A stretch of 61,452 nt of DNA from a phage: the sequence record PQ826432.1; one strand, given 5' to 3'. This document shows, piece by piece, positions 15,845-59,986 of this stretch. The notes under the pieces are model-generated. The model did not search any database, was not told the DNA's origin, and saw only the letters and a program-made list of their open reading frames with translations. Each line of letters starts with the position of its first letter. The stretch's first letter is position 1. The position numbers and the translations under genes were made by a program.

Positions 15845-16906
15845 TTAGGAACCCTGATACTCACGAGTGATCAGGCGTGCGACTTTAAGCTGCTTGCGCT
15901 CAGGGAACGCACGACGCCAGGAATCTTCATGGGCCAGGTTGTTAGTGGTTGCAGCGTTAGACGGACCACCTTTAGCAGTTTGAGCAGCAGCCCAAGCATG
16001 ACCGACCGGATGCAGAATCCATTCAACACGGTTGTGAAGAACTTCTTCACCAGCGCCATTGTTAGCAGCTTCATCACGAACCACAGCAGTCGGAACTTTT
16101 GGTGAACCAGCACCCATTGCGGTAGCGCCCGGGCCGAACAGCCAGCTTTCAAAGATACCAGTAGACGGATCGTGCGGCATGGAGTCGTCTTCGATAATAC
16201 GCAGACCCTGATAATACTCAAACTGAGTTTCACCGCGAGCATCCGGAATGAAGTCGATCAGGTTCAACTGACGCATACGGTTACGAACGGTAGAGTGTAC
16301 CATAATCATGGTCAGACCGCGAGCAGCATCACCCATCGTTGCAGTTGCGTTGATGAAGTTAGACGCGGTAAAGTTGGTCTGGTTGTTTACAAATGAAGAA
16401 CCGGAAATATCGAACGTCAGATCGTCCGAATGGGATTTCTTGGCATTAGCAAACACACCTTTCCATGTTGCAATATAAGCAGCCTGAAGACGGCGAACCC
16501 ACCATGCAGAAACGCGGTTGCCAATAGCGGTCATTGGGTCGTTACCGATCAAAGCTGATACCAGATCCGCAGAACCCCAGGATTTCGAACGACTCATACG
16601 AACCTGAACTTCAGATCCGGTAGTGATGTTTGACGGTTTGGACGGAGCACCTTTATCGATCGCAATATCTTCGTCTTCGTCTTTCAGGTCATTATAGAAC
16701 GGCTCGTTAAAAGTCAAACCTGCACCAGCAAGGTTAGCAGATAAACGCTCGTCCATTACAACCGCACCGGATTGGATCAGGGCAGAAAGTTCAGCGGTCT
16801 GCGTCTGCACATAACCAGTGAAGATCTCAGGGACAATGACATCCTTCAAACGAGTCAGGTCAGTTTCACCACGACCAAATGGTAGAATAATTTTAGATTT
16901 AGACAT
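15845..16906 (-). CDS. major capsid protein
   Basis: 353 aa after scaffold gene; GGAG SD. Confidence 0.75.
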   Translation of the reverse strand: MSKSKIILPFGRGETDLTRLKDVIVPEIFTGYVQTQTAELSALIQSGAVVMDERLSANLAGAGLTFNEPFYNDLKDEDEDIAIDKGAPSKPSNITTGSEVQVRMSRSKSWGSADLVSALIGNDPMTAIGNRVSAWWVRRLQAAYIATWKGVFANAKKSHSDDLTFDISGSSFVNNQTNFTASNFINATATMGDAARGLTMIMVHSTVRNRMRQLNLIDFIPDARGETQFEYYQGLRIIEDDSMPHDPSTGIFESWLFGPGATAMGAGSPKVPTAVVRDEAANNGAGEEVLHNRVEWILHPVGHAWAAAQTAKGGPSNAATTNNLAHEDSWRRAFPERKQLKVARLITREYQGS

Positions 16907-17028: not shown

Positions 17029-17901
17029 TTATTTCTTAGCAGGACGTACAGGCTTCAACGGATCTACGCCATTCTTTTCAGCTAAGCGTTTAGCTAAAGA
17101 TTGATTAGTTTTCCAGAGATTCATCTGCTTAGAAATGTTCCAGCCGTCGTGACTGTATGGGTCTTCACCGTGATGGCCGCCAGCGCCAGGACCAGATGCA
17201 CCGCCACCAGCAGATCCTTCGACCCAGTGCGGACGTTTCGGAAGGATTTCGTTCAGCCAGTCAGCCGGAGTTAGATACGGGGTAACACCAGCACCATCTT
17301 TCGTAACCACGTTGCCGTTCTCGTCGACGGTCATCTGCAACTGTGCATAAGTTACAGCGTCTTCGATAGCAGATGGACGCAATTTAGCACCAGAAGCAGC
17401 GGCAATAACTGCATCTTTAATCTTCGCTTTAGTTTCGCGAGCGCGGTAGCCTTCAATTTCCTGCTTAACCGTGTCACGCTCGGTGATAACAGTTTGCAAT
17501 TGGCGCTCAAGCGGAGCAAGACGGGCTTTGACCATCTTCTCAATGTCTTCCGGATTACCTTTACCGCTAGCAGCAGCTTCCAGCTCAGGAATACGATCCA
17601 AATCCGCCAGGACTTCTTCAACCGGACGCCCCAGTGCGCTAATTTGTTGTTTCACCTGACGATGATCGTTACGCTCTTTTGCTAACGCACTTTCCAGACG
17701 ACGAACGCTATCAGCAGGTGCTACACCTTTGACTTTTGCAAGAACGTATTTACCACCCTGCTCTGCGTAAAGAGTTGCAAATTCCGCTGGGATTTCTTCC
17801 GCAGATGCATACTCGTATTGCAATTCCACATCACCTTCACCGCGAGCGCGTGGATTAATTAGAGCAAAACCAACACTAATAGCTACAGAACTCTTTTTCA
17901 T
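17029..17901 (-). CDS. scaffolding protein
   Basis: 290 aa helical, charged; between portal and capsid. Confidence 0.55.
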   Translation of the reverse strand: MKKSSVAISVGFALINPRARGEGDVELQYEYASAEEIPAEFATLYAEQGGKYVLAKVKGVAPADSVRRLESALAKERNDHRQVKQQISALGRPVEEVLADLDRIPELEAAASGKGNPEDIEKMVKARLAPLERQLQTVITERDTVKQEIEGYRARETKAKIKDAVIAAASGAKLRPSAIEDAVTYAQLQMTVDENGNVVTKDGAGVTPYLTPADWLNEILPKRPHWVEGSAGGGASGPGAGGHHGEDPYSHDGWNISKQMNLWKTNQSLAKRLAEKNGVDPLKPVRPAKK

Positions 17902-28814: not shown

Positions 28815-29429
28815 ATGTCTAAAGTAACTCACCGCGAACAGGACAAAATGCGCTACACCATGAAAACGAATGCACGCCGCGCTCTGAAGACCCGCTGGGG
28901 TCAGGTTGCACGCGACGCACACGAACAGTTAATCCATCAGGACGATATTGGTTTTTACATCATCGAAAAGGAAGTCCTTCAGGTTCTGCGCGAGCACGAA
29001 AAAGCGCAACAGCCCGAGCAGAAAGTCCCAGCACCGACCGCCGCGCCAGCTGCTAGCGTCTCGGTACTGCGCCCGATGGTAAATCCGGAAATTGTCAAAA
29101 GCTGCCTCGAATCTCTGGAGCAGGAGGAAGAGAAAGATATGAAACACGCAAAAGCTGCCACGCAGGTTTCTGAAATCAAAATTGAAGAGCCAAAAGCTGC
29201 CTTGCCAAAACAAGATGCAAAAGCTGCTCGCTGCGATTTCAAAAATGGCGCTCGCAAGCCGCTCAAAGGAAAAACTGCCGAAGTGTGGGCAATGGGTGAC
29301 AAGCTTCTGAAGGAACTGGGCCGCACGCCGGAGCTGAAAGAGATGAAAGCTGCAATGCCTTCTTACAACGGGACGACGGTAGCCATTCAGTTCTACGCCT
29401 GGCGCAAATATAACGGCCTGGACGCATAA
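28815..29429 (+). CDS. hypothetical protein (about 204 aa)
   Basis: ORF track 28770..29429; ATG 28815 with AAAGGAG SD. Confidence 0.5.
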   Translation: MSKVTHREQDKMRYTMKTNARRALKTRWGQVARDAHEQLIHQDDIGFYIIEKEVLQVLREHEKAQQPEQKVPAPTAAPAASVSVLRPMVNPEIVKSCLESLEQEEEKDMKHAKAATQVSEIKIEEPKAALPKQDAKAARCDFKNGARKPLKGKTAEVWAMGDKLLKELGRTPELKEMKAAMPSYNGTTVAIQFYAWRKYNGLDA

Positions 29430-37627: not shown

Positions 37628-38419
37628 ATGCGTAAAGAATTTCAGAAAGCTTACCATGCCCTGCTGAAAGGTGTTGTAACTGTCAAAGTTAAGTTTGAAG
37701 CAGGTGTTCGTCTTTATACCTACCGTGCCCTGGAAAGCGACGAATTGCAGCCGGGCGATACAGTTGTTATTCAATATAACGGCAAGTTCTTTACTACGGA
37801 AGTAGTAGAAGTGGATCAATATCCGGACTTCAGTAAGGATGTTGAATACAAATGGATTGTCTGTAAAGTGGATGAAGAGCGCTATGCTCACTTCCTGGAA
37901 CAGGAACACATGTTCGAACAACAGATGTTGGCTTTGTCCGCAAACAAAGAAGCAGAAGCGACCAAGAAAGAATTGATCGAGTTGTACGGTGAAGAAAATG
38001 TCGGTTATTTGGCAGGTATTGCTCAGGGTAAAGTAATGGCCCCGACATTGAATGACGTTATTGACACTCTGTTGCAAAACTTTGCAGATGGTGCAGATCT
38101 TAACGGTAGTGTTGTTGAGTTTAAAACCGGATCTTATAATGGCGAAGCTGTACAACGTCAGAAAGATTTATATGTACAGGTGCTTGGGCGCGGTTTACGC
38201 AAGATGGAAGGTCCGCGTCTGGACTGGGAAAGTCGTTACAATAAACACATCGCTAAGATGCATAACCTGAACGGTTTTACATGGCGTGATTTTATGGCGC
38301 CTGGTGCAAGTAAAGAGAGCGACGAAGACGTAGAATCTGCTAAAATCTTGTTTGATCGTTTCAAGCGCAAGCAGTATCCGATCGAGCAATATATCGAAGA
38401 GTTCAAAGACAAACTGTAA
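37628..38419 (+). CDS. hypothetical protein (263 aa)
   Basis: ORF track; AAGAGGA SD. Confidence 0.5.
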   Translation: MRKEFQKAYHALLKGVVTVKVKFEAGVRLYTYRALESDELQPGDTVVIQYNGKFFTTEVVEVDQYPDFSKDVEYKWIVCKVDEERYAHFLEQEHMFEQQMLALSANKEAEATKKELIELYGEENVGYLAGIAQGKVMAPTLNDVIDTLLQNFADGADLNGSVVEFKTGSYNGEAVQRQKDLYVQVLGRGLRKMEGPRLDWESRYNKHIAKMHNLNGFTWRDFMAPGASKESDEDVESAKILFDRFKRKQYPIEQYIEEFKDKL

Positions 38420-40318: not shown

Positions 40319-41047
40319 ATGGCCATTGAAATTAAAATGTCTTCACAAGTAGTGCAAGACACAGGCGTTAAAATTCTGGTTTACGGTGAAGCGGGTATGG
40401 GTAAAACCAGCCTTGTAGCTACGCTACCTAAACCAATTTTGATCAGCGCAGAGTCCGGTCTGTTATCTATTGCAGCGGAAAACCTTAATCGCGTTTATGG
40501 TAACATGGGATTGCCGATCGTTTATGATATCCCAGTTATTGAAGTTAAATGTCTGGAGGACGTTGAAGCTGCTTATCAGTGGTGTGTAACTCCAGCTAAC
40601 CAGCAGTATTTCGATTCTATTGCGCTTGACAGCTTGAGCGAAATTGCTGAACAATGTTTAAACAATGCGAAAAAAGGAACAAAAGATCCTCGTCAAGCTT
40701 ATGGTACTTTGCTTGAAAAGATGCAAGATCTGATCCGTAAATTTCGCGATATTCCTGGCAAACATGTTTATATGTCTGCTAAAATGGGCAAAGACAAAGA
40801 TGAAGTCTCCGGTGTTACCGCGTATGCTCCATCTATGCCTGGGTCCAAATTGGGGCAAATGCTCCCTTACTTCTTCGACGAAGTGTTTCGTCTGAATGTA
40901 AATAAGGATCAGCAAGGTAACTCATATCGTTACTTGCAAACTCAACCGGACTTTAATACAATCGCTAAGGATCGTTCGGGACGTTTAGATGCGGTTGAAG
41001 TCCCACACTTAGGTTCTGTTATCAACAAAATGAAAGGTATCAACTAA
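40319..41047 (+). CDS. RecA-like AAA ATPase (Sak4-like)
   Basis: Walker A GEAGMGKTS near N-terminus; followed by SSB-like and nuclease genes. Confidence 0.5.
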   Translation: MAIEIKMSSQVVQDTGVKILVYGEAGMGKTSLVATLPKPILISAESGLLSIAAENLNRVYGNMGLPIVYDIPVIEVKCLEDVEAAYQWCVTPANQQYFDSIALDSLSEIAEQCLNNAKKGTKDPRQAYGTLLEKMQDLIRKFRDIPGKHVYMSAKMGKDKDEVSGVTAYAPSMPGSKLGQMLPYFFDEVFRLNVNKDQQGNSYRYLQTQPDFNTIAKDRSGRLDAVEVPHLGSVINKMKGIN

Positions 41048-41916
41048 TGACTATGCCAACTAATTTCCACTTTGACGCGAGCAGCTATCAAGCACCTTCT
41101 TACGGCGCATTGCCGAAAGGTTGGTATAAAGCAGTAATTGAAGCATCTGAATTTAAACCGACCAAAAATGGCGGTATGGCAATCCAGGTAACGTTTAGCA
41201 TCATTGACGGTTTTGCTAAAGGTCGCAAAATCTTCGCTCGTTATAACGTTATTAACGACAACGAAGATACTGTGCGTATCGCTTACGAGCAACTGGGAGC
41301 TCTTTCCCACGCTGTAGGTGTAATTCGCTGGGATACTCCTGCGCAACTGCATAACATTCCGCTGAACCTGCGTCTGAAAGTTCGTTCTCAGGAAGGTTAT
41401 GAAGACAGCAACGAGCCGAACGGTTACGCTAACATCAACGATCCGGTTAAATATGCAGAAAAAGCAGCAGAGGCTCCATCAATGGGTGCTCCAGCAGTAG
41501 CTAACCCGTTTGGTGCAGGTGCGCCAGCACAGCAGCCAACTTTCCCGGGCGCAGCGCCACAGCAGCCAGCAGCTAACCCGTTTGCTCAGCAACAGCAAGC
41601 ACCTGTACAGCAGCAAGCTCCGGTACAGCAACAGCAGCCTGTTCAGCAACCAGCACCGCAGCAGGGCGCAGCAGCTCAACCGTGGCAGAATGCCGCACCG
41701 CAGCCGTGGGATAACCCTGCTCAAAACGCAGCGCCACAGCAGCCAGTTCAGCAAGCTCCGGTACAACAGCCAGTAGCACCGGAAGCAGCTCAGCAGCCGT
41801 GGGCGCAGCAGGTAGCACAGCCGGGTCAGGCAGCAGCACCGCAGCAGCAAGCGCAGCCACAGCAGCAAGCTGAACCGCATCCGGCACAAGCAGCAGTCCC
41901 GCCGTGGCAGCAGTAA
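41047..41916 (+). CDS. single-stranded DNA-binding-like protein with Pro/Gln/Ala-rich C-terminal tail
   Basis: position after Sak4-like ATPase; low-complexity C-terminus. Confidence 0.4.
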   Translation: MTMPTNFHFDASSYQAPSYGALPKGWYKAVIEASEFKPTKNGGMAIQVTFSIIDGFAKGRKIFARYNVINDNEDTVRIAYEQLGALSHAVGVIRWDTPAQLHNIPLNLRLKVRSQEGYEDSNEPNGYANINDPVKYAEKAAEAPSMGAPAVANPFGAGAPAQQPTFPGAAPQQPAANPFAQQQQAPVQQQAPVQQQQPVQQPAPQQGAAAQPWQNAAPQPWDNPAQNAAPQQPVQQAPVQQPVAPEAAQQPWAQQVAQPGQAAAPQQQAQPQQQAEPHPAQAAVPPWQQ

Positions 41917-45431: not shown

Positions 45432-45926
45432 ATGTACGTCCTGATTGATACAGATAAATTTGAACTCTTGGCAAAGCATCCCAATTGGCTGACACTACAC
45501 CAACTTGGAATTATTTGTTGCCCTGAGTCAACACTGGTGACACCAGTAGACGATTTACATGATCTTGAAGATGTTGATCTTCAAATGCTTTATATTAACT
45601 TGACAGAAAACTTAGGAGCTGCACCTTATGAACGGGAAATCGTTGAGCGCATTTTGTTTGATTACTTTACGCAACTTCCAGAAAAAATCCTGGATCACGC
45701 CCAAATCAGCGCACAAGCCGAATTCTGTGTGGAATACGATATCCAAGGCTTTTGCTCACCTCAAATTGGGCAATACGTTCCGTCAATGGATGAAGGACTT
45801 TGGAAACCTGCCCGTGTCAAATACGATGCTGAACGGGAGGGTGGTATTATTTCCGGTGCCAGGGTCGTTTGTGAGCAACCCGCATTGCAAGCCGCATGGA
45901 CACCGGGCAGAGGGGCAAAGAGTTAG
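45432..45926 (+). CDS. hypothetical protein (164 aa)
   Basis: ORF track; AGGGGA SD. Confidence 0.45.
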   Translation: MYVLIDTDKFELLAKHPNWLTLHQLGIICCPESTLVTPVDDLHDLEDVDLQMLYINLTENLGAAPYEREIVERILFDYFTQLPEKILDHAQISAQAEFCVEYDIQGFCSPQIGQYVPSMDEGLWKPARVKYDAEREGGIISGARVVCEQPALQAAWTPGRGAKS

Positions 45927-46053
45927 TAAGTTCTAAGCTTGATCAAAAATATTTTTAAAAATATTCAGATAAGGGGTTGCGTGTCACAAAATCCTTTGGT
46001 ACATTTAACCCCGTTGGTAACAAACGAACCCATAACAATTCGGAGTGAAGAGA

Positions 46054-46857
46054 ATGAGCAACATTGAAGACAAAAAAGCTGCTGCCGCAGCCGCTGCTGC
46101 CGCCGCTGCAAAATCTGCTAAACCTGCAAAGAAAGAAGCTACTGTGAATGATACAGAAGCTAAGAAAGCCGCAGCCGCTGAAGCTGCACGCGTAGCAAAA
46201 GAGAAAAAAGAAGCAGAGAAAAAAGCTGCCGCTGAAAAGAAACAAGCTGAAATCCGCACTGAAGCGGAAAACAAATTCAATGCGATTGCTAACGCTGCTG
46301 AAATCCTGAAAAACTCTTTGGCTACCGTCACCGACGAAAGCACTGTTGAACAGATCACGGAAGCAGAAACTCAGGGATCTGCAAACCTGAAGACCATTAA
46401 AGAAGCTCTGAAAGAGCTGAAAGCTGTCGTTAAGAAGTCTAAAGGTGAAGACCTGTCCGGTGCTGTAACTTCTGCCCAGGGTCTGGTGGATGGTCTGGAA
46501 GCTACTATTAAAGGCTTCAAAGACAAGATCCGTGCTGCAAAACAGGCAGAAAAAGAAGCGGAAAAAGCACGCGCTAAAGAGCTCCGCGAGAAAGAAAAAG
46601 AAGCTAATCGTATGCCTGAACAGAACGGTGTTCGCCGTCCGCAACCGGAAACTTCCTGCGGTCGTGCCTGGGCTCTGATGGACCAGATTAGCGCTACGCT
46701 GGGTCAGCCTGCTCCAATCTCTTATGTTCTGAACCTGGCTGGTCGACATGGTCTGAACGAAGATACCGTTAAAACCCAGTATGCACGCTGGAAGAAATTT
46801 AATGGTGTGACTGGTCGCGTACCTGTACCAGTACCGGAAGCCCTGAACGGCTTGTAA
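46054..46857 (+). CDS. Lys/Ala/Glu-rich coiled-coil protein with poly-Ala tract, histone H1-like composition
   Basis: ORF track 46045..46857; ATG 46054 with GGAG SD; 11-Ala run and AKK/EKK repeats. Confidence 0.4.
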   Translation: MSNIEDKKAAAAAAAAAAAKSAKPAKKEATVNDTEAKKAAAAEAARVAKEKKEAEKKAAAEKKQAEIRTEAENKFNAIANAAEILKNSLATVTDESTVEQITEAETQGSANLKTIKEALKELKAVVKKSKGEDLSGAVTSAQGLVDGLEATIKGFKDKIRAAKQAEKEAEKARAKELREKEKEANRMPEQNGVRRPQPETSCGRAWALMDQISATLGQPAPISYVLNLAGRHGLNEDTVKTQYARWKKFNGVTGRVPVPVPEALNGL

Positions 46858-46883
46858 TATCAAAACATATCACGTTATAATGA

Positions 46884-46910
46884 AGGCGCCCAATGAGGCG
46901 CTTTCTTTTT
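46884..46910 (+). terminator. weak stem-loop plus U-run
   Basis: GCGCC/GGCGC stem then TTTCTTTTT. Confidence 0.35.
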
Positions 46911-46926: not shown

Positions 46927-47634
46927 ATGAATATTAATCAACAAGCTCCCGAGTCTCGTTCTAAAGAAAACGATATGTATTTAGACGTGCATTCGGTATT
47001 CTCTACCATTCAGGGTGAAGGGCCATTCTGCGGCCAACCTGCTGTATTTGTGCGACTTGCTGGGTGTAACCTGCAATGTCCGGGCTGTGATACTGACTAT
47101 ACTGTAGGTCGTTCTCTTTATCACATTGTTGATATCGTGCGTTTAATCGAAAGCCGTAAGCTGGAATCAGGCAATAGCACCTCACTTGTGGTTATTACTG
47201 GGGGTGAACCGTTCCGTCAGCAAATTAACCCGTTTATTGAACAACTGTTATCGCGGGGCTATTTGGTGCAAATCGAAACTAATGGGTCTATGCCTTTACC
47301 TAAGAACTTTTCCCAGTTGCCTGTGATTGTATGTAGTCCCAAGACCTCAAAGATTCATCCTTCTGTGCTGTACCGCGCTAATGCATTTAAATATGTACTT
47401 AAAGCGTGCTGTGTAAATGTGGAAGACGGTTTACCGCTTCAGGCATTGGATCATCAAGCTACGCCATTTATCGCTAGACCTCCGAAGGGTTTCAAGGGTA
47501 AGATATATTTACAGCCAATGGACGAGCAGGATGAAGACCTTAACCACAGTAATATCCAAGCGGTTGTCCAAAGCTGTATGAAACACGGGTACACGTTGCA
47601 GCTTCAGGTCCACAAATATATCGGGGTGGAATAA
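46927..47634 (+). CDS. queE: 7-carboxy-7-deazaguanine synthase (radical SAM)
   Basis: CNLQCPGC cluster, ITGGEP motif; strong SD GAGGAG. Confidence 0.75.
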   Translation: MNINQQAPESRSKENDMYLDVHSVFSTIQGEGPFCGQPAVFVRLAGCNLQCPGCDTDYTVGRSLYHIVDIVRLIESRKLESGNSTSLVVITGGEPFRQQINPFIEQLLSRGYLVQIETNGSMPLPKNFSQLPVIVCSPKTSKIHPSVLYRANAFKYVLKACCVNVEDGLPLQALDHQATPFIARPPKGFKGKIYLQPMDEQDEDLNHSNIQAVVQSCMKHGYTLQLQVHKYIGVE

Positions 47635-47933
47635 TGCGTGTATTAAGTCAGGTTGTGCATACTAAAGAAGTTGAATACTTTGGTAATAAGCTTGATGTCC
47701 CTGAATGGGTACGGTGGCTGGCTACGGATCAAGACGGTACAGTTTACGGATTCGAGTATGAGCCAACGTTGATGGACATTGAAACTAAATGGACATCATA
47801 CTGGGAAGATGATAACTTTTGTGAAATGGCAGAAGTTGACCTCGAAGGTATGGATTATAGACAAACATTAGTGAAGGTGAAAAGAAATGATCACTTTGGA
47901 AGAAGCGAAACAGCATCAGGAAATGATTACTGA
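47634..47933 (+). CDS. hypothetical protein (99 aa)
   Basis: ORF track. Confidence 0.4.
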   Translation: MRVLSQVVHTKEVEYFGNKLDVPEWVRWLATDQDGTVYGFEYEPTLMDIETKWTSYWEDDNFCEMAEVDLEGMDYRQTLVKVKRNDHFGRSETASGNDY

Positions 47934-48099
47934 GCTGGTAGAAAAACTTAATTCTTCAATTGCTCACGCTACTATGCAAGGTGTGCATGTAGAATTAGAT
48001 ATTAATCACGTTAGCACAATTGGAGCTCGCAATCATCCAATTGTAATGTCTAACGTAACAATCAACCCTTGTAATATTAAAGGTGAAGTAAATGAATGA
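47887..48099 (+). CDS. hypothetical protein (70 aa)
   Basis: ORF track; overlaps upstream ORF end. Confidence 0.3.
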   Translation: MITLEEAKQHQEMITELVEKLNSSIAHATMQGVHVELDINHVSTIGARNHPIVMSNVTINPCNIKGEVNE

Positions 48100-48280
48100 A
48101 GAAACTGTAATCCTTATGCAGAAAATTCAACGTTTACAAGACGAGTTGAATGACGCTATTTGTCGTGCTGCATCCAAGAAAATACATTCGGAGCTTGAGA
48201 TACACCAGCGTCAGGTAACCTCTGAAGCTGTAGTTGAACAAGTAGTCATTAACCTTAATATTAGCCTTAAAGGTTTCTAA
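48092..48280 (+). CDS. hypothetical protein (62 aa)
   Basis: ORF track. Confidence 0.3.
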   Translation: MNEETVILMQKIQRLQDELNDAICRAASKKIHSELEIHQRQVTSEAVVEQVVINLNISLKGF

Positions 48281-59143: not shown

Positions 59144-59851
59144 TTAGCAGCAGCCAGTCGGAGGAGTTGGAGGAGTTGGCAGTTTAAAGTTAACTAACTG
59201 CTCAACCTGATTGATCTTACAAGTAAGACCAGCCGTTTGTGCCAACTGAGAGTTCGCAAAGCGAGCTTCCTGCAACTGGGACTTCAGGTCGCAGATCAGA
59301 ACAGCTTGCGCCTGTGCGTGTTGATCACGGATCAGTGCACGGGTAGCTTCAGCTTGACGCTCGATGTTCAGGTTGGTTTCGCAGCAACACTTCTCGGCTG
59401 CTAACTGTGCCTGGAAAGAACGGGTAATGTTAGCTGCCTCGTTGCTACACAGAGCCGCGAGCACTTGGCTGGTGCCGCCCTGGATTTGCGTGTTCAGACC
59501 AGCAAATCCCTGAACGGAAGCCAGCATATTCTGAGTGTTCTGCTGAGTGATGCCGTTATAGGTAGAAGCAGCAGAGCGCTCAACAGTCAGGTTAGTACCG
59601 TTCTGCCCCTGAATGGTCTGAAGAGTACCGTTGTTAATGGCTTGCAGAATTGCGTTGGTGTCAACAGAAGCTTGAACTTCCACCGGACCAGCGAAGTTAC
59701 CGCGACCACCCCAACCACCATTGCCACCCCAACCGTTACCGATCCAGGAACCAATCAAACCACCGATTGCACCACCGATACCAGCCGCACCAGCTTCACC
59801 GCCGAAACCGTCGCCACCGAGATTAGTAGGTAAAAGAGTCATGTCAGACAT
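59144..59851 (-). CDS. Gly-rich protein with C-terminal Cys cluster (about 235 aa)
   Basis: ORF track 59144..59980 (TTG); ATG 59851 with GGAG SD; GGDGFGGEAGAAGIGG...GWGGNGGWGG tract; ends PTPPTPPTGCC. Confidence 0.45.
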   Translation of the reverse strand: MSDMTLLPTNLGGDGFGGEAGAAGIGGAIGGLIGSWIGNGWGGNGGWGGRGNFAGPVEVQASVDTNAILQAINNGTLQTIQGQNGTNLTVERSAASTYNGITQQNTQNMLASVQGFAGLNTQIQGGTSQVLAALCSNEAANITRSFQAQLAAEKCCCETNLNIERQAEATRALIRDQHAQAQAVLICDLKSQLQEARFANSQLAQTAGLTCKINQVEQLVNFKLPTPPTPPTGCC

Positions 59852-59986
59852 AGGAAAATCTCCATATATGGATTTGTTAAGCGGATGTAACCAACTGGTT
59901 ACGAAGTAAAGCATACCCCTTAACACGATTTTTACAATCATCCAAATGTAAAGATTTTGTAAATTAGGATTGACAGTCAATAAAAA

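What the first reader, a model, noticed from the sequence alone, without database searches (positions are those of the whole stretch)
46054..46857. Poly-Ala, Lys-rich histone-like protein at the head of the modification locus
Seen: N-terminal run of 11 Ala followed by AKK/EKK-rich coiled coil, with a distinct C-terminal domain (…SCGRAWALMDQISATLGQPAPISYVLNLAGRHGLNEDTVKTQYARWKKFNG…). Composition resembles histone H1-like nucleoid proteins. Inference: a DNA-coating protein here could shield or organise phage DNA, or help target the transglycosylase. The opposite-strand 302-aa ORF over the same DNA is a codon-composition artefact.
Basis: partly seen in the sequence, partly recalled or inferred. 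Interest (0 to 1): 0.5.

Follow-up and report, generated by a model that had tools for sequence, protein, structure and literature searches.

The report
Abundant phage protein tied to deazaguanine DNA
This is a real phage gene built for very high expression; its small, conserved C-terminal domain belongs to no described family and occurs only in phages that carry the 7-deazaguanine DNA-modification genes, so it probably binds phage DNA, although it is not a true histone H1 relative and no one has tested it.

Summary
The ORF at 46054-46857 (+) is real. It is the orthologue of Seurat gp44 and CAjan "FtrA-domain protein" (PHROG 11298, function unknown). The 11-Ala run, the Ala/Lys/Glu-rich helical region and the quoted C-terminal sequence are all present.

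"Histone H1-like" is only superficially right. Acidic residues nearly balance basic ones (whole protein net +9). No H1, HU or HC2 family match was found.

- **Expression.** The gene has its own positionally conserved sigma-70-type promoter and its own terminator. It has the highest codon adaptation in the window, above the SSB and the major capsid protein. It ranks first in all 10 related loci tested.
- **Domain.** The conserved part is a basic domain of about 73 aa (QNGVRRP...YARWRKF). The model shows a beta-hairpin plus three helices, weakly winged-helix-like. It is absent from Pfam and the PDB.
- **Copies.** There are 2-3 (possibly more) copies per phage genome. A second copy lies in this window at 28815-29429. 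Some proteins carry it in tandem.
- **Distribution.** It is found only in the siphophage lineage that carries queE/C/D-folE-dpdA. The gene lies directly upstream of queE in every one of 80 viral-contig loci that keeps downstream sequence.

Best reading (confidence about 0.4): an abundant protein associated with phage DNA and co-inherited with 7-deazaguanine DNA. It is not needed for the transglycosylation itself.

The parts
45945..45965 (+). AT-rich palindromic tract (AAAAATATTTTTAAAAATATT) just upstream of the -35 hexamer; a possible UP-like element
   Evidence: Read. Conserved in Seuratvirus orthologues, and AT-rich tracts sit in the same position in Nonagvirus and other lineages. Its function is inferred.
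45977..46005 (+). sigma-70-type promoter-like site, TTGCGT-N17-TACATT, about 50 nt upstream of the ATG
   Evidence: TTGCxx-N17-TAxxxT is conserved in position in Seuratvirus, Nonagvirus (9g), Vid5-like and other lineages despite sequence divergence. A looser pattern (TTGNNN-N16-18-TANNNT) occurs upstream in 64 of 82 distinct loci against 29 of 475 random windows. The pattern is not enriched in the window as a whole, and no transcript has been mapped.
46042..46045 (+). Shine-Dalgarno GGAG, 8 nt before the ATG
   Evidence: annotated as an RBS in Seurat.
46054..46857 (+). CDS of 267 aa, orthologue of Seurat gp44 / CSP1_078 / 9g gp09 (PHROG 11298)
   Evidence: Codon adaptation index 0.567, the highest in the window. 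Purifying selection acts in the + frame.
46054..46143 (+). N-terminal tail (aa 1-30) with the 11-Ala run (46078-46110) and the KSAKPAKK stretch; low model confidence
   Evidence: residues 23-28 have pLDDT below 50. Residues 1-66 differ from Seurat at only 2 positions despite 16 synonymous changes.
46150..46605 (+). three long helices (aa 33-90, 98-128, 135-184), Ala/Lys/Glu-rich at both ends; predicted antiparallel helical bundle; fast-evolving middle
   Evidence: AlphaFold2 model with pLDDT mostly above 90. Foldseek returned only generic three-helix bundles with E above 0.1. 33 of 120 residues differ from Seurat. More distant homologues have only a shorter low-complexity A/K/E segment here.
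46612..46830 (+). conserved C-terminal domain (aa 187-259): beta-hairpin QNGVRRPQP plus three helices ending in YARWKKFNG
46882..46905 (+). intrinsic terminator hairpin followed by TTTTT, closing the one-gene transcription unit
   Evidence: annotated in Seurat and SA126VB. A hairpin plus T-run follows the gene in 42 of 83 distinct loci against 29 of 475 random windows.
46852..46881 (+). promoter-like site TTGTAA-N18-TATAAT overlapping the gene's end and abutting the terminator; a candidate promoter for queE
   Evidence: 10 of 12 matches; annotated as a promoter in SA126VB. Not tested.
28815..29429 (+). paralogue: a 204-aa protein (PHROG 22313) with an unrelated N-terminal part and a C-terminal copy of the same domain (FKNGARKP...FYAWRKYNGL)
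   Evidence: Domain HMM E = 3.3e-7; sequence; PHROG; codon adaptation index 0.449.
45955..46863 (-). 302-aa antisense ORF; not a gene
   Evidence: It is codon-aligned with the real gene, is open because TTA, CTA and TCA are absent, and shows 3 synonymous against 96 non-synonymous changes.

Best explanation
The gene encodes a very abundant, non-virion phage protein that associates with phage DNA. It is transcribed by host RNA polymerase from its own promoter as a one-gene unit.

Shown:
- It is a real gene with a dedicated promoter and terminator.
- It has the highest codon adaptation of the replication/modification module in every enterobacterial relative tested.
- The confident model has a flexible Ala/Lys tail, a long helical bundle and a basic domain of about 73 aa made of a hairpin plus three helices.
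- That domain is a phage-lineage-specific module. It occurs in 2-3 (possibly more) genes per genome, sometimes in tandem, attached to different N-terminal parts.
- The family is found only in phages that also carry queE/C/D-folE-dpdA, and this gene sits immediately upstream of queE.

Inferred:
- The C-terminal domain is the binding module. The basic hairpin and the invariant Y-x-x-W-R/K-K-F helix would contact the DNA backbone without sequence specificity, since this surface barely varies between paralogues.
- The helical bundle would mediate self-association or spacing.
- The protein would then coat or organise replicating phage DNA, which is 7-deazaguanine-substituted in sequenced relatives. 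This resembles phage-encoded architectural proteins that accompany modified DNA in other phages, such as SPO1 TF1.
- It is not part of the chemistry of base exchange.
For: - **Abundance signature.** Codon adaptation index is 0.567, against 0.546 for the SSB (41047-41916) and 0.541 for the major capsid protein. The gene ranks 1 of 15-26 genes in 10 related loci from Seuratvirus, Nonagvirus, Vid5-like and other lineages. It has a strong SD.
- **Own transcription unit.** The promoter is conserved in position with AT-rich upstream tracts. Promoter-like sites occur upstream in 64 of 82 loci and terminator-like sites downstream in 42 of 83, each against about 6% of random windows.
- **Charge.** The domain has a median net charge of +3, and is +3 or more in 69% of 86 homologues.
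- **Modularity.** 52 of 97 loci hold at least 2 ORFs with the domain. Proteins with 2-3 tandem copies exist. Paralogues in other phages pair it with a SAP/Rho_N-like motif and a zinc ribbon, both sub-threshold in Pfam.
- **Link to modified DNA.** Phage records with the domain number 150. Their genus counts equal those of the full-length DpdA clade: Escherichia 41, Pseudomonas 31, Vibrio 23, Enterobacteria 8, Providencia 4, Salmonella 3. QueE starts 100-1100 nt (mostly under 500) after the domain in all 80 viral loci that retain flank. Three ~43-kb phages share the replication module but lack que/dpdA, and none has a copy of the domain. A 43-kb phage that has que/dpdA holds three copies.
- **Restriction to phages.** No hit in 72,556 plasmids. 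Only 8 hits in 185,579 species genomes, mostly on phage-sized MAG contigs.
- **Constraint.** The Ala/Lys N-terminus and the domain are almost invariant against Seurat (2 of 66 and 1 of 81 residues changed) despite many synonymous changes.
Against: - Nothing here demonstrates DNA binding.
- In the model the hairpin precedes helix 1 instead of following helix 3 as in classical winged helices.
- The long Ala/Lys/Glu region is nearly charge-neutral, which suits a spacer or coiled coil better than a DNA-coating tail.
- Co-distribution with the que/dpdA cassette is confounded by common descent. The que-positive phages form one clade: helicase identity is about 50% within it and about 42% to the que-less relatives.
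- In Synechococcus phage Ssp-JY38 the domain genes lie after the DNA polymerase, not before queE.
- The codon adaptation values use the Sharp-Li E. coli weights as I recalled them, so ranks are more trustworthy than absolute values.
Confidence: 0.4

Rival explanations
1. Transcription factor or RNA-polymerase-associated factor. The domain would be an HTH that recruits or adapts host RNA polymerase to middle or late promoters, or to 7-deazaguanine-containing templates. The paralogues would be stage-specific versions.
Against: Regulators are rarely the most codon-adapted gene of a module, above the SSB. The putative recognition helix is almost invariant across paralogues and genera, which does not fit promoter-specific recognition. 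Database labels such as 'transcriptional activator FtrA' are automatic and no Pfam or NCBIfam match backs them.
Confidence: 0.15
2. Protein-protein adaptor. The domain would dock different N-terminal parts onto one shared partner, such as the phage clamp, SSB, DpdA or a host hub protein. The Ala/Lys/Glu helix would act as a rigid spacer, building a replication/modification 'factory'.
For: Many winged-helix matches are protein-binding modules: RPA32C, cullin WHB, APC2, Nse1. The same invariant domain is attached to unrelated N-terminal parts in several genes per genome. The near-neutral charged helix looks like a spacer.
Against: A partner present in catalytic amounts would not call for the highest expression in the module. 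Tandem arrays of 2-3 domains in one chain fit a polymeric ligand such as DNA better than a single protein partner. The domain is consistently basic.
Confidence: 0.15
3. Anti-defence protein. Its abundance would let it cover phage DNA against nucleases, or soak up or decoy a host immune sensor that recognises modified DNA.
For: High expression from a host-type promoter. The central region evolves fast: 33 of 120 residues differ between close relatives while the ends are fixed. The family is restricted to hypermodified phages, which are targeted by dedicated nucleases (PMC12191111).
Against: A rough hand estimate (no formal calculation was run) puts dN/dS in the middle region at about 0.25, which is relaxed, not positive, selection. 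CAjan lacking dpdA loses all 7-deazaguanine and its DNA becomes cleavable by restriction enzymes in vitro, although the gene is still present (PMC6884629). That assay used purified DNA, so it does not test in-cell shielding. No PADLOC or anti-defence library was searched.
Confidence: 0.1
4. Dedicated helper of DpdA. It would prepare or mark DNA for guanine exchange, playing a role like that of DpdB in the bacterial Dpd system.
For: Invariant position directly upstream of queE. Strict co-occurrence with the que/dpdA cassette, including joint absence from Septimatrevirus relatives.
Against: 9g DpdA alone inserts dPreQ0, and DpdA plus Gat-QueC converts 9-18% of plasmid G to dG+ in E. coli without this protein (PMC6884629). 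There is no ParB-like, ATPase or other enzymatic signature. A terminator separates it from queE. Paralogues lie elsewhere.
Confidence: 0.08

Closest known systems
SPO1 TF1 (phage-encoded HU-type protein that prefers hydroxymethyluracil DNA); comparison from my own knowledge of the literature
   Same: An abundant, phage-encoded, non-virion protein made by a phage whose DNA is hypermodified. It is the best analogy for the proposed role of organising modified phage DNA.
   Different: TF1 is an HU/IHF-fold dimer. Here there is no Bac_DNA_binding match, and the model is a helical bundle plus a small hairpin-and-three-helix domain. Preference for modified DNA is untested here.
Linker histone H1/H5 (winged-helix globular domain flanked by Lys/Ala-rich tails)
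   Same: Overall layout: a small winged-helix-like domain joined to a long Ala/Lys-rich low-complexity region, including a short KSAKPAKK stretch.
KfrA of IncP plasmids (alanine-rich coiled-coil DNA-binding protein); comparison from my own knowledge
   Same: A small HTH-type DNA-binding domain attached to a long Ala-rich helical region. The sequence pattern is also similar: helix, G-x-P, helix, turn, helix ending in W-basic.
   Different: Domain order is reversed (the KfrA domain is N-terminal). No KfrA_N Pfam match for 35 + 29 family members. No hit in 72,556 plasmids.
Pfam PF18780 HNH_repeat (homing-endonuclease-associated repeat)
   Same: It is the only Pfam family hit more than once, by two different sub-families of the domain. 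Both occur in tandem arrays. The pattern of the three-helix core is similar (G-R-x-P ... S/N-x-x-T ... F/Y-x-x-W).
   Different: Both hits are below the curated cut-off (E 0.0076 and 0.099; 17 and 13 bits against 26) and are not significant after about 70 queries. No member is fused to an HNH nuclease.
PHROG 11298 / 18634 / 21588 (unknown function)
   Same: The protein is a full-length member of PHROG 11298 (E = 5.6e-112). Its domain also matches 18634 and 21588.
   Different: These families carry no functional annotation. This work adds the domain boundaries, the paralogy, the expression signature and the link to the deazaguanine cassette.

Membership tests
Linker histone H1/H5 | Globular winged-helix domain recognisable as Linker_histone (PF00538) | tested here: not met
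Linker histone H1/H5 | Lys-rich, acid-poor, strongly cationic tails | tested here: not met
   K+R 18% against D+E 14.6%; net charge +9 for the whole protein, +7 over residues 1-195. Median net +4 in the non-domain part of 86 homologues.
Bacterial H1-like proteins (Hc1/Hc2, AlgP, Hlp C-terminal PAKKA repeats) | Tandem short Ala/Lys/Pro repeats with almost no acidic residues | tested here: not met
   Tandem Repeats Finder sees only the poly-Ala codon run. Glu is 11.6%. No HC2 or related Pfam hit.
HU/IHF type II DNA-binding proteins (includes SPO1 TF1) | Bac_DNA_binding fold and sequence signature | tested here: not met
Winged-helix / HTH superfamily | Three-helix core with helix-turn-helix geometry plus a beta-hairpin wing | tested here: inconclusive
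Winged-helix / HTH superfamily | Binds nucleic acid | not testable with these tools
   Needs gel-shift, ChIP or structural data.
KfrA-like plasmid proteins | KfrA_N DNA-binding domain (PF11740) followed by an Ala-rich coiled coil | tested here: not met
   No KfrA_N hit; domain order reversed; absent from plasmids.
Phage head scaffolding proteins (P22 gp8 type) | Gene in the head module next to the major capsid protein; the only scaffold of the phage | tested here: not met
   A canonical scaffold (PHROG 206) lies at 17029-17901 next to the major head protein at 15845-16906. The target lies in the replication/modification module.
DpdB-type accessory of DpdA | ParB-like/ATPase domain, and required for guanine exchange | tested here: not met
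   No such domain. Published reconstitution works without the homologue (PMC6884629).
PF18780 HNH_repeat | Score above Pfam's gathering threshold (26 bits) | tested here: not met
   Best scores 17.0 and 13.4 bits. Matches 1 of 29 paralogue domain sequences and 1 of 4 sub-family consensus sequences; none of the 35 main-family sequences matches.
PHROG 11298 | Full-length profile match | tested here: met
   E = 5.6e-112, residues 16-267 against profile positions 1-260 of 273.

The most novel reading that the evidence does not exclude
The ~73-aa QNGVRRP...YARWRKF domain is a previously undescribed fold family that specifically recognises 7-deazaguanine-substituted DNA. On this reading, Queuovirinae-type phages use it as a common 'address tag'. 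It would direct a set of proteins to their own modified genome and away from host DNA: this abundant architectural protein, SAP/zinc-ribbon paralogues, gp45-like proteins and tandem-domain proteins. It would be a reader module that co-evolved with the writer cassette queE/C/D-folE-dpdA.
Probability: 0.15. Interest if true: 0.8.

Novelty: new variant of a known kind. Interest (0 to 1): 0.5.

Why it matters
Work on 7-deazaguanine DNA in phages has focused on the biosynthetic enzymes and DpdA. In the papers I read, this gene is unannotated or auto-labelled ("hypothetical", "transcriptional activator FtrA", "outer capsid protein", "plectin"). I did not examine the published cluster figures.

Yet by codon usage it is the most expression-optimised gene of the replication/modification module. 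It is as widespread as DpdA within this lineage: 150 cultured phages and about 2,000 protein clusters. It defines a multi-copy domain family seen nowhere else.

If it binds or reads modified DNA, that would show how these phages package, transcribe or distinguish hypermodified genomes. It would also supply a small protein module usable for detecting deazaguanine DNA. If it does not, it remains a major unexplained investment of the phage.

The experiments are straightforward, because CAjan can already be edited by CRISPR (PMC6884629).

Tried and rejected
- **Sequence families.** Pfam, NCBIfam and PHROG scans of the whole protein, of 35 + 29 domain sequences and of sub-family consensus sequences gave nothing above threshold.
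- **Solved structures by sequence.** One search with the single protein and three with profiles returned only low-complexity or chance matches.
- **Fold searches.**
  - The full model against the PDB gave only generic three-helix bundles.
  - The domain against BFVD returned only uncharacterised members of the same family.
  - The afdb50 library was unavailable.
- **Head scaffold idea.** Rejected, because a canonical scaffold sits next to the capsid gene.
- **'Fusions' with the upstream gp45-like protein** (P0090, P0161, P0172, P0175, P0181, P0195). These are most likely run-on gene calls. The translated Shine-Dalgarno region is visible just before the internal Met (for example GVTEM), and the frequency (6 of 150) is what chance allows. 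A genuine gp45-like protein with a C-terminal copy of the domain does exist (L003).
- **RNA elements.** No riboswitch or other Rfam family around the gene or before queE.
- **Other contexts.** Plasmids gave no hit. Bacterial genomes gave 8 hits, mostly phage-like MAG contigs.
- **Window-wide promoter pattern.** No enrichment of TTGC-N19-TA-N3-T (16 found, 13.7 expected).
- **Literature.** Searches and reading of the 9g/CAjan, Vid5, Iggy, CSP1 and END-nuclease papers found no statement about this protein.
- **SAP/Rho_N and zinc-ribbon motifs in paralogues.** Only sub-threshold hits.
Full report
**What the window is.** The 2.3 kb around the finding is 91-98% identical to Seuratvirus genomes (Queuovirinae) such as RCIP0359, CSP1, OddieOddie, Seurat and CAjan. 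In Seurat the gene is CPT_Seurat44, "hypothetical protein". Other records call it "transcriptional activator FtrA domain-containing protein", "outer capsid protein" or "plectin 1". No Pfam or NCBIfam match backs any of those names. Gene order is helicase, gp45, this gene, queE, three small ORFs, queC, two genes, queD, folE, two genes, dpdA, clamp, polA.

**Checking the observation.** The ORF runs from 46054 to 46857 and encodes 267 aa, with GGAG 8 nt upstream of the ATG.
- Residues 9-19 are 11 alanines.
- The next ~170 residues are rich in Ala, Lys and Glu.
- Against the Seurat orthologue, 87 of 125 nucleotide differences fall at codon position 3. Synonymous to non-synonymous codon changes are 63:36 in the sense frame and 3:96 in the antisense frame.
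- The 302-aa minus-strand ORF is codon-aligned with the gene. It is open only because the gene contains no TTA, CTA or TCA codon.

The "histone H1-like" description is only partly right. K+R is 18% but D+E is 14.6%, pI is 9.4, and the net charge of the whole protein is +9. Over 86 homologues the non-domain part is 33% Ala, 23% K+R and 19% D+E, with a median net charge of +4. No DNA-level repeat unit exists apart from the Ala codon run.

**Expression signature.** Using the Sharp-Li E. coli weights (entered from memory, so ranks matter more than absolute values), the gene has the highest codon adaptation index of any ORF of 60 aa or more in the window.
- Its value is 0.567. The 289-aa SSB (41047-41916, PHROG 6015) scores 0.546 and the major head protein (15845-16906) scores 0.541.
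- In 10 related 12-20 kb loci from Seuratvirus, Nonagvirus, Vid5-like and other enterobacterial lineages, the orthologue ranks first of 15-26 genes every time, above the SSB wherever the SSB gene was located.
- Upstream lies TTGCGT-N17-TACATT (45977-46005), preceded by an AT-rich palindrome. The same TTGCxx-N17-TAxxxT arrangement with AT-rich upstream DNA sits at the same distance from the start codon in Nonagvirus (9g, SE1), Vid5 and three other lineages whose intergenic sequences are otherwise unalignable.
- A promoter-like site occurs upstream in 64 of 82 distinct loci. A hairpin plus T-run occurs downstream in 42 of 83. Random windows give about 6% for each.
- In the window the terminator is at 46882-46905, as annotated in Seurat and SA126VB.

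The gene is therefore a conserved one-gene transcription unit built for high output.

**Structure.** With a 94-sequence alignment, AlphaFold2 gives mean pLDDT 89 and pTM 0.61.
- A short helix covers the Ala run, followed by a low-confidence linker (residues 23-28).
- Three long helices follow: residues 33-90, 98-128 and 135-184.
- Then comes a hairpin (residues 189-194) and three short helices (201-216, 222-231, 236-249).
- Foldseek with the whole model against the PDB returns only generic antiparallel three-helix bundles, all with E above 0.1.
- The C-terminal 85 residues modelled alone give the same hairpin-plus-three-helix domain at pLDDT 80.
- BFVD returns only uncharacterised proteins of the same phage group, including several hits whose accessions I recognise as BcepGomr proteins; the tool gave no names for those rows.

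**The conserved unit is the C-terminal domain.**
- Homologues fall into two groups. Full-length relatives of 250-296 aa have 43-99% identity. Many proteins of 160-220 aa share only the last ~73 residues at 50-68% identity, preceded by low-complexity Ala/Lys/Glu sequence.
- Invariant positions are N191, P196, W206, Y243, W246 and G254.
- A profile of the domain finds 1957 cluster representatives at E <= 1e-3 and 829 at E <= 1e-10 among 1.84 billion proteins.
- No Pfam family, NCBIfam model or PDB sequence matches it.
- The only Pfam family seen more than once is PF18780 (homing-endonuclease-associated repeat), at E 0.0076 and 0.099. Both are below threshold and are not significant given the number of queries.
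- Some proteins hold two or three tandem copies of the domain (P0121, P0122, P0123, P0144, P0202, P0217).
- In others the Ala/Lys/Glu segment follows the domain instead of preceding it (P0103, P0110, P0185, P0193).

**Paralogues.**
- A six-frame HMM scan of the window finds a second copy at the C-terminus of the 204-aa product of 28815-29429 (E = 3.3e-7; PHROG 22313; codon adaptation index 0.449). This gene lies in the early part of the plus-strand block.
- 52 of 97 fetched loci contain two or three ORFs with the domain, usually between the helicase and this gene.
- Those paralogues carry other N-terminal parts. One type has a SAP/Rho_N-like motif with a CxxC...CxxC zinc ribbon (sub-threshold Pfam hits, E 0.02-0.2). 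Another has a gp45-like domain.
- The window's own gp45 (164 aa) matches only the first 163 positions of its 242-position PHROG profile, so it lacks the C-terminal ~80 positions. In locus L003 a 235-aa gp45-like protein carries a weak copy of the domain at its C-terminus.
- Metagenomic "fusions" of gp45-like and Ala/Lys/Glu-domain proteins look like run-on gene calls across the intergenic region.

**Distribution and context.**
- In all 80 IMG/VR loci and the MAG contigs that retain flanking DNA, the order is Sak4-like ATPase, SSB, exonuclease, helicase, (gp45), this gene, queE, queC, queD, folE, dpdA, clamp, polA. QueE begins 100-1100 nt after the domain, mostly under 500 nt.
- The same arrangement holds in phages of Stenotrophomonas (42 kb), Rhizobium (54 kb) and Achromobacter (95 kb).
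- The one exception seen is Synechococcus phage Ssp-JY38, where two adjacent domain genes follow the DNA polymerase.
- Among 50,697 phage records the domain occurs in 150.
- Full-length relatives of the window's DpdA occur in 155 records, with identical counts per genus name for Escherichia (41), Pseudomonas (31), Vibrio (23), Enterobacteria (8), Providencia (4) and Salmonella (3). Among the listed hits and genus counts, actinophage and Cellulophaga phages with distant DpdA do not appear among the domain hits.
- The helicase is far more widespread, with 402 records at 80% coverage or more.
- Three ~43-kb relatives share the replication module but have the helicase directly next to the clamp: Xanthomonas phage Samson, Pseudomonas phage 73 and Variovorax phage VCLv11. 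They have neither que/dpdA genes nor any copy of the domain (HMM search with filters off, E <= 0.1).
- The 43-kb Variovorax phage VPv64 has the que/dpdA cassette and three domain ORFs.
- The domain is absent from 72,556 plasmids. It is almost absent from 185,579 species genomes, where 8 hits lie mostly on phage-sized MAG contigs.

The family is therefore specific to this lineage of virulent phages and is inherited together with the deazaguanine cassette. Because the que-positive phages form a clade (helicase identity about 50% within it, about 42% to the que-less relatives), this is co-inheritance. It is not proof of a functional link.

**What is published.**
- Hutinet et al. 2019 (PMC6884629) showed that 9g DpdA alone inserts dPreQ0 into plasmid DNA in E. 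coli.
- The same paper showed that DpdA plus Gat-QueC converts 9-18% of G to dG+, and that CAjan lacking dpdA loses all modification.
- The orthologue of this gene is therefore not needed for base exchange.
- The Vid5 virion proteomics text names gp07, gp10 and gp99 as the unexpected virion components. I did not open the supplementary table or map the gene number of the homologue (PMC6266253).
- None of the other papers read mentions the protein.

**Evolutionary constraint.** Between the window and Seurat, residues 1-66 have 2 amino-acid changes and 16 synonymous changes. Residues 187-267 have 1 and 14. Residues 67-186 have 33 and 33. The Ala/Lys N-terminus and the domain are tightly constrained, and the central bundle is much freer.

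**Interpretation.** The abundance signature points to a stoichiometric role rather than a catalytic or regulatory one. A basic, invariant, modular and sometimes tandem domain fits a module that binds a polymer, most simply DNA. So do its weakly winged-helix-like predicted fold and its co-occurrence with SAP-like and zinc-ribbon motifs. Strict co-inheritance with the deazaguanine cassette suggests the ligand is the phage's own modified DNA.

I therefore favour an abundant phage-DNA-associated architectural protein (confidence 0.4). Its closest functional analogue is SPO1 TF1, and its layout is loosely linker-histone-like, but it belongs to neither family. The rivals are an RNA-polymerase or transcription factor (0.15), a protein-protein adaptor (0.15), an anti-defence role (0.10) and a DpdA helper (0.08). 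The remaining probability is unassigned.

The most novel reading not excluded is that the domain is a reader of 7-deazaguanine DNA, used as an address tag by several phage proteins (probability about 0.15).

**Verdict.** The histone H1 label is superficial. The DNA-organising idea is plausible but unproven. The transglycosylase-targeting idea is weakened. The real finding is an uncharacterised domain family, expressed at very high level and present in several copies per genome, that travels with the deazaguanine DNA-modification cassette.

Noticed in passing
window 28815-29429 (+): A second gene in the window ends with a diverged copy of the same C-terminal domain (FKNGARKP...FYAWRKYNGL). It encodes 204 aa (PHROG 22313, unknown function), has a high codon adaptation index (0.449) and lies in the early plus-strand block, 17 kb from the que genes.
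   Followed up: partly
window 46852-46905 (+): A near-consensus promoter-like site (TTGTAA-N18-TATAAT) overlaps the stop codon of the gene and abuts the terminator hairpin. Transcripts started there would begin inside the hairpin and read into queE, while upstream transcripts would stop. This may be a way to uncouple queE expression from the very strong upstream unit.
   Followed up: no
window 45432-45926 (+); locus L003 7201-7908: gp45 (164 aa) covers only the first 163 of 242 positions of its PHROG 7864 profile. A 235-aa relative in L003 carries a weak C-terminal copy of the QNG...WRKF-type domain, so the window's gp45 looks like a version that lost the domain.
   Followed up: partly
loci L011 7956-8648, L045 8174-8596, L047 2995-3831, L054 3804-4697: Upstream paralogues in other phages combine an N-terminal SAP/Rho_N-like motif (MGKEELRxACKxxG...), a Pro/Ala linker, often a CxxC...CxxC zinc ribbon, and the domain. 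The Pfam hits are all sub-threshold.
   Followed up: partly
loci L100 (Samson), L101 (phage 73), L102 (VCLv11) against L103 (VPv64): Septimatrevirus-type phages have the same Sak4-SSB-exonuclease-helicase-clamp-PolA module, with the helicase directly next to the clamp and no que/dpdA genes or domain genes. The whole block of domain genes plus queE...dpdA behaves as one cassette inserted between helicase and clamp.
   Followed up: partly
window 46252-46611 (aa 67-186 of the target): The central helical bundle differs from Seurat at 33 of 120 residues, while the flanking 66 and 81 residues differ at 2 and 1. This could reflect relaxed constraint, recombination mosaicism or an arms-race surface.
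   Followed up: no
window 59144-59941 (-) and 37628-38419 (+): Two further proteins of unknown function (PHROG 9288 and PHROG 27666) have unusually high codon adaptation (0.48 and 0.45), comparable to structural genes.
   Followed up: no
proteins P0090, P0161, P0172, P0175, P0181, P0195 (metagenomic gene calls): These apparent fusions of gp45-like and Ala/Lys/Glu-domain proteins show a translated Shine-Dalgarno region just before an internal Met. They are probably run-on ORF calls, which is a caution for domain-architecture counts in metagenomic protein sets.
   Followed up: partly
phage records (Mycobacterium phages Rosebush, Godines, Saguaro, Tres, Kheth): In actinophages the distant dpdA is gene 2 and sits next to a gene annotated as ParB-like or HTH DNA-binding protein. 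A DNA-binding neighbour of dpdA may therefore be a recurring theme, served by unrelated proteins in different phage lineages.
   Followed up: no
window 47634-48280 (+): Three small overlapping ORFs (99, 70 and 62 aa) separate queE from queC. They are conserved in Seurat and CSP1 annotations and have no known function.
   Followed up: no
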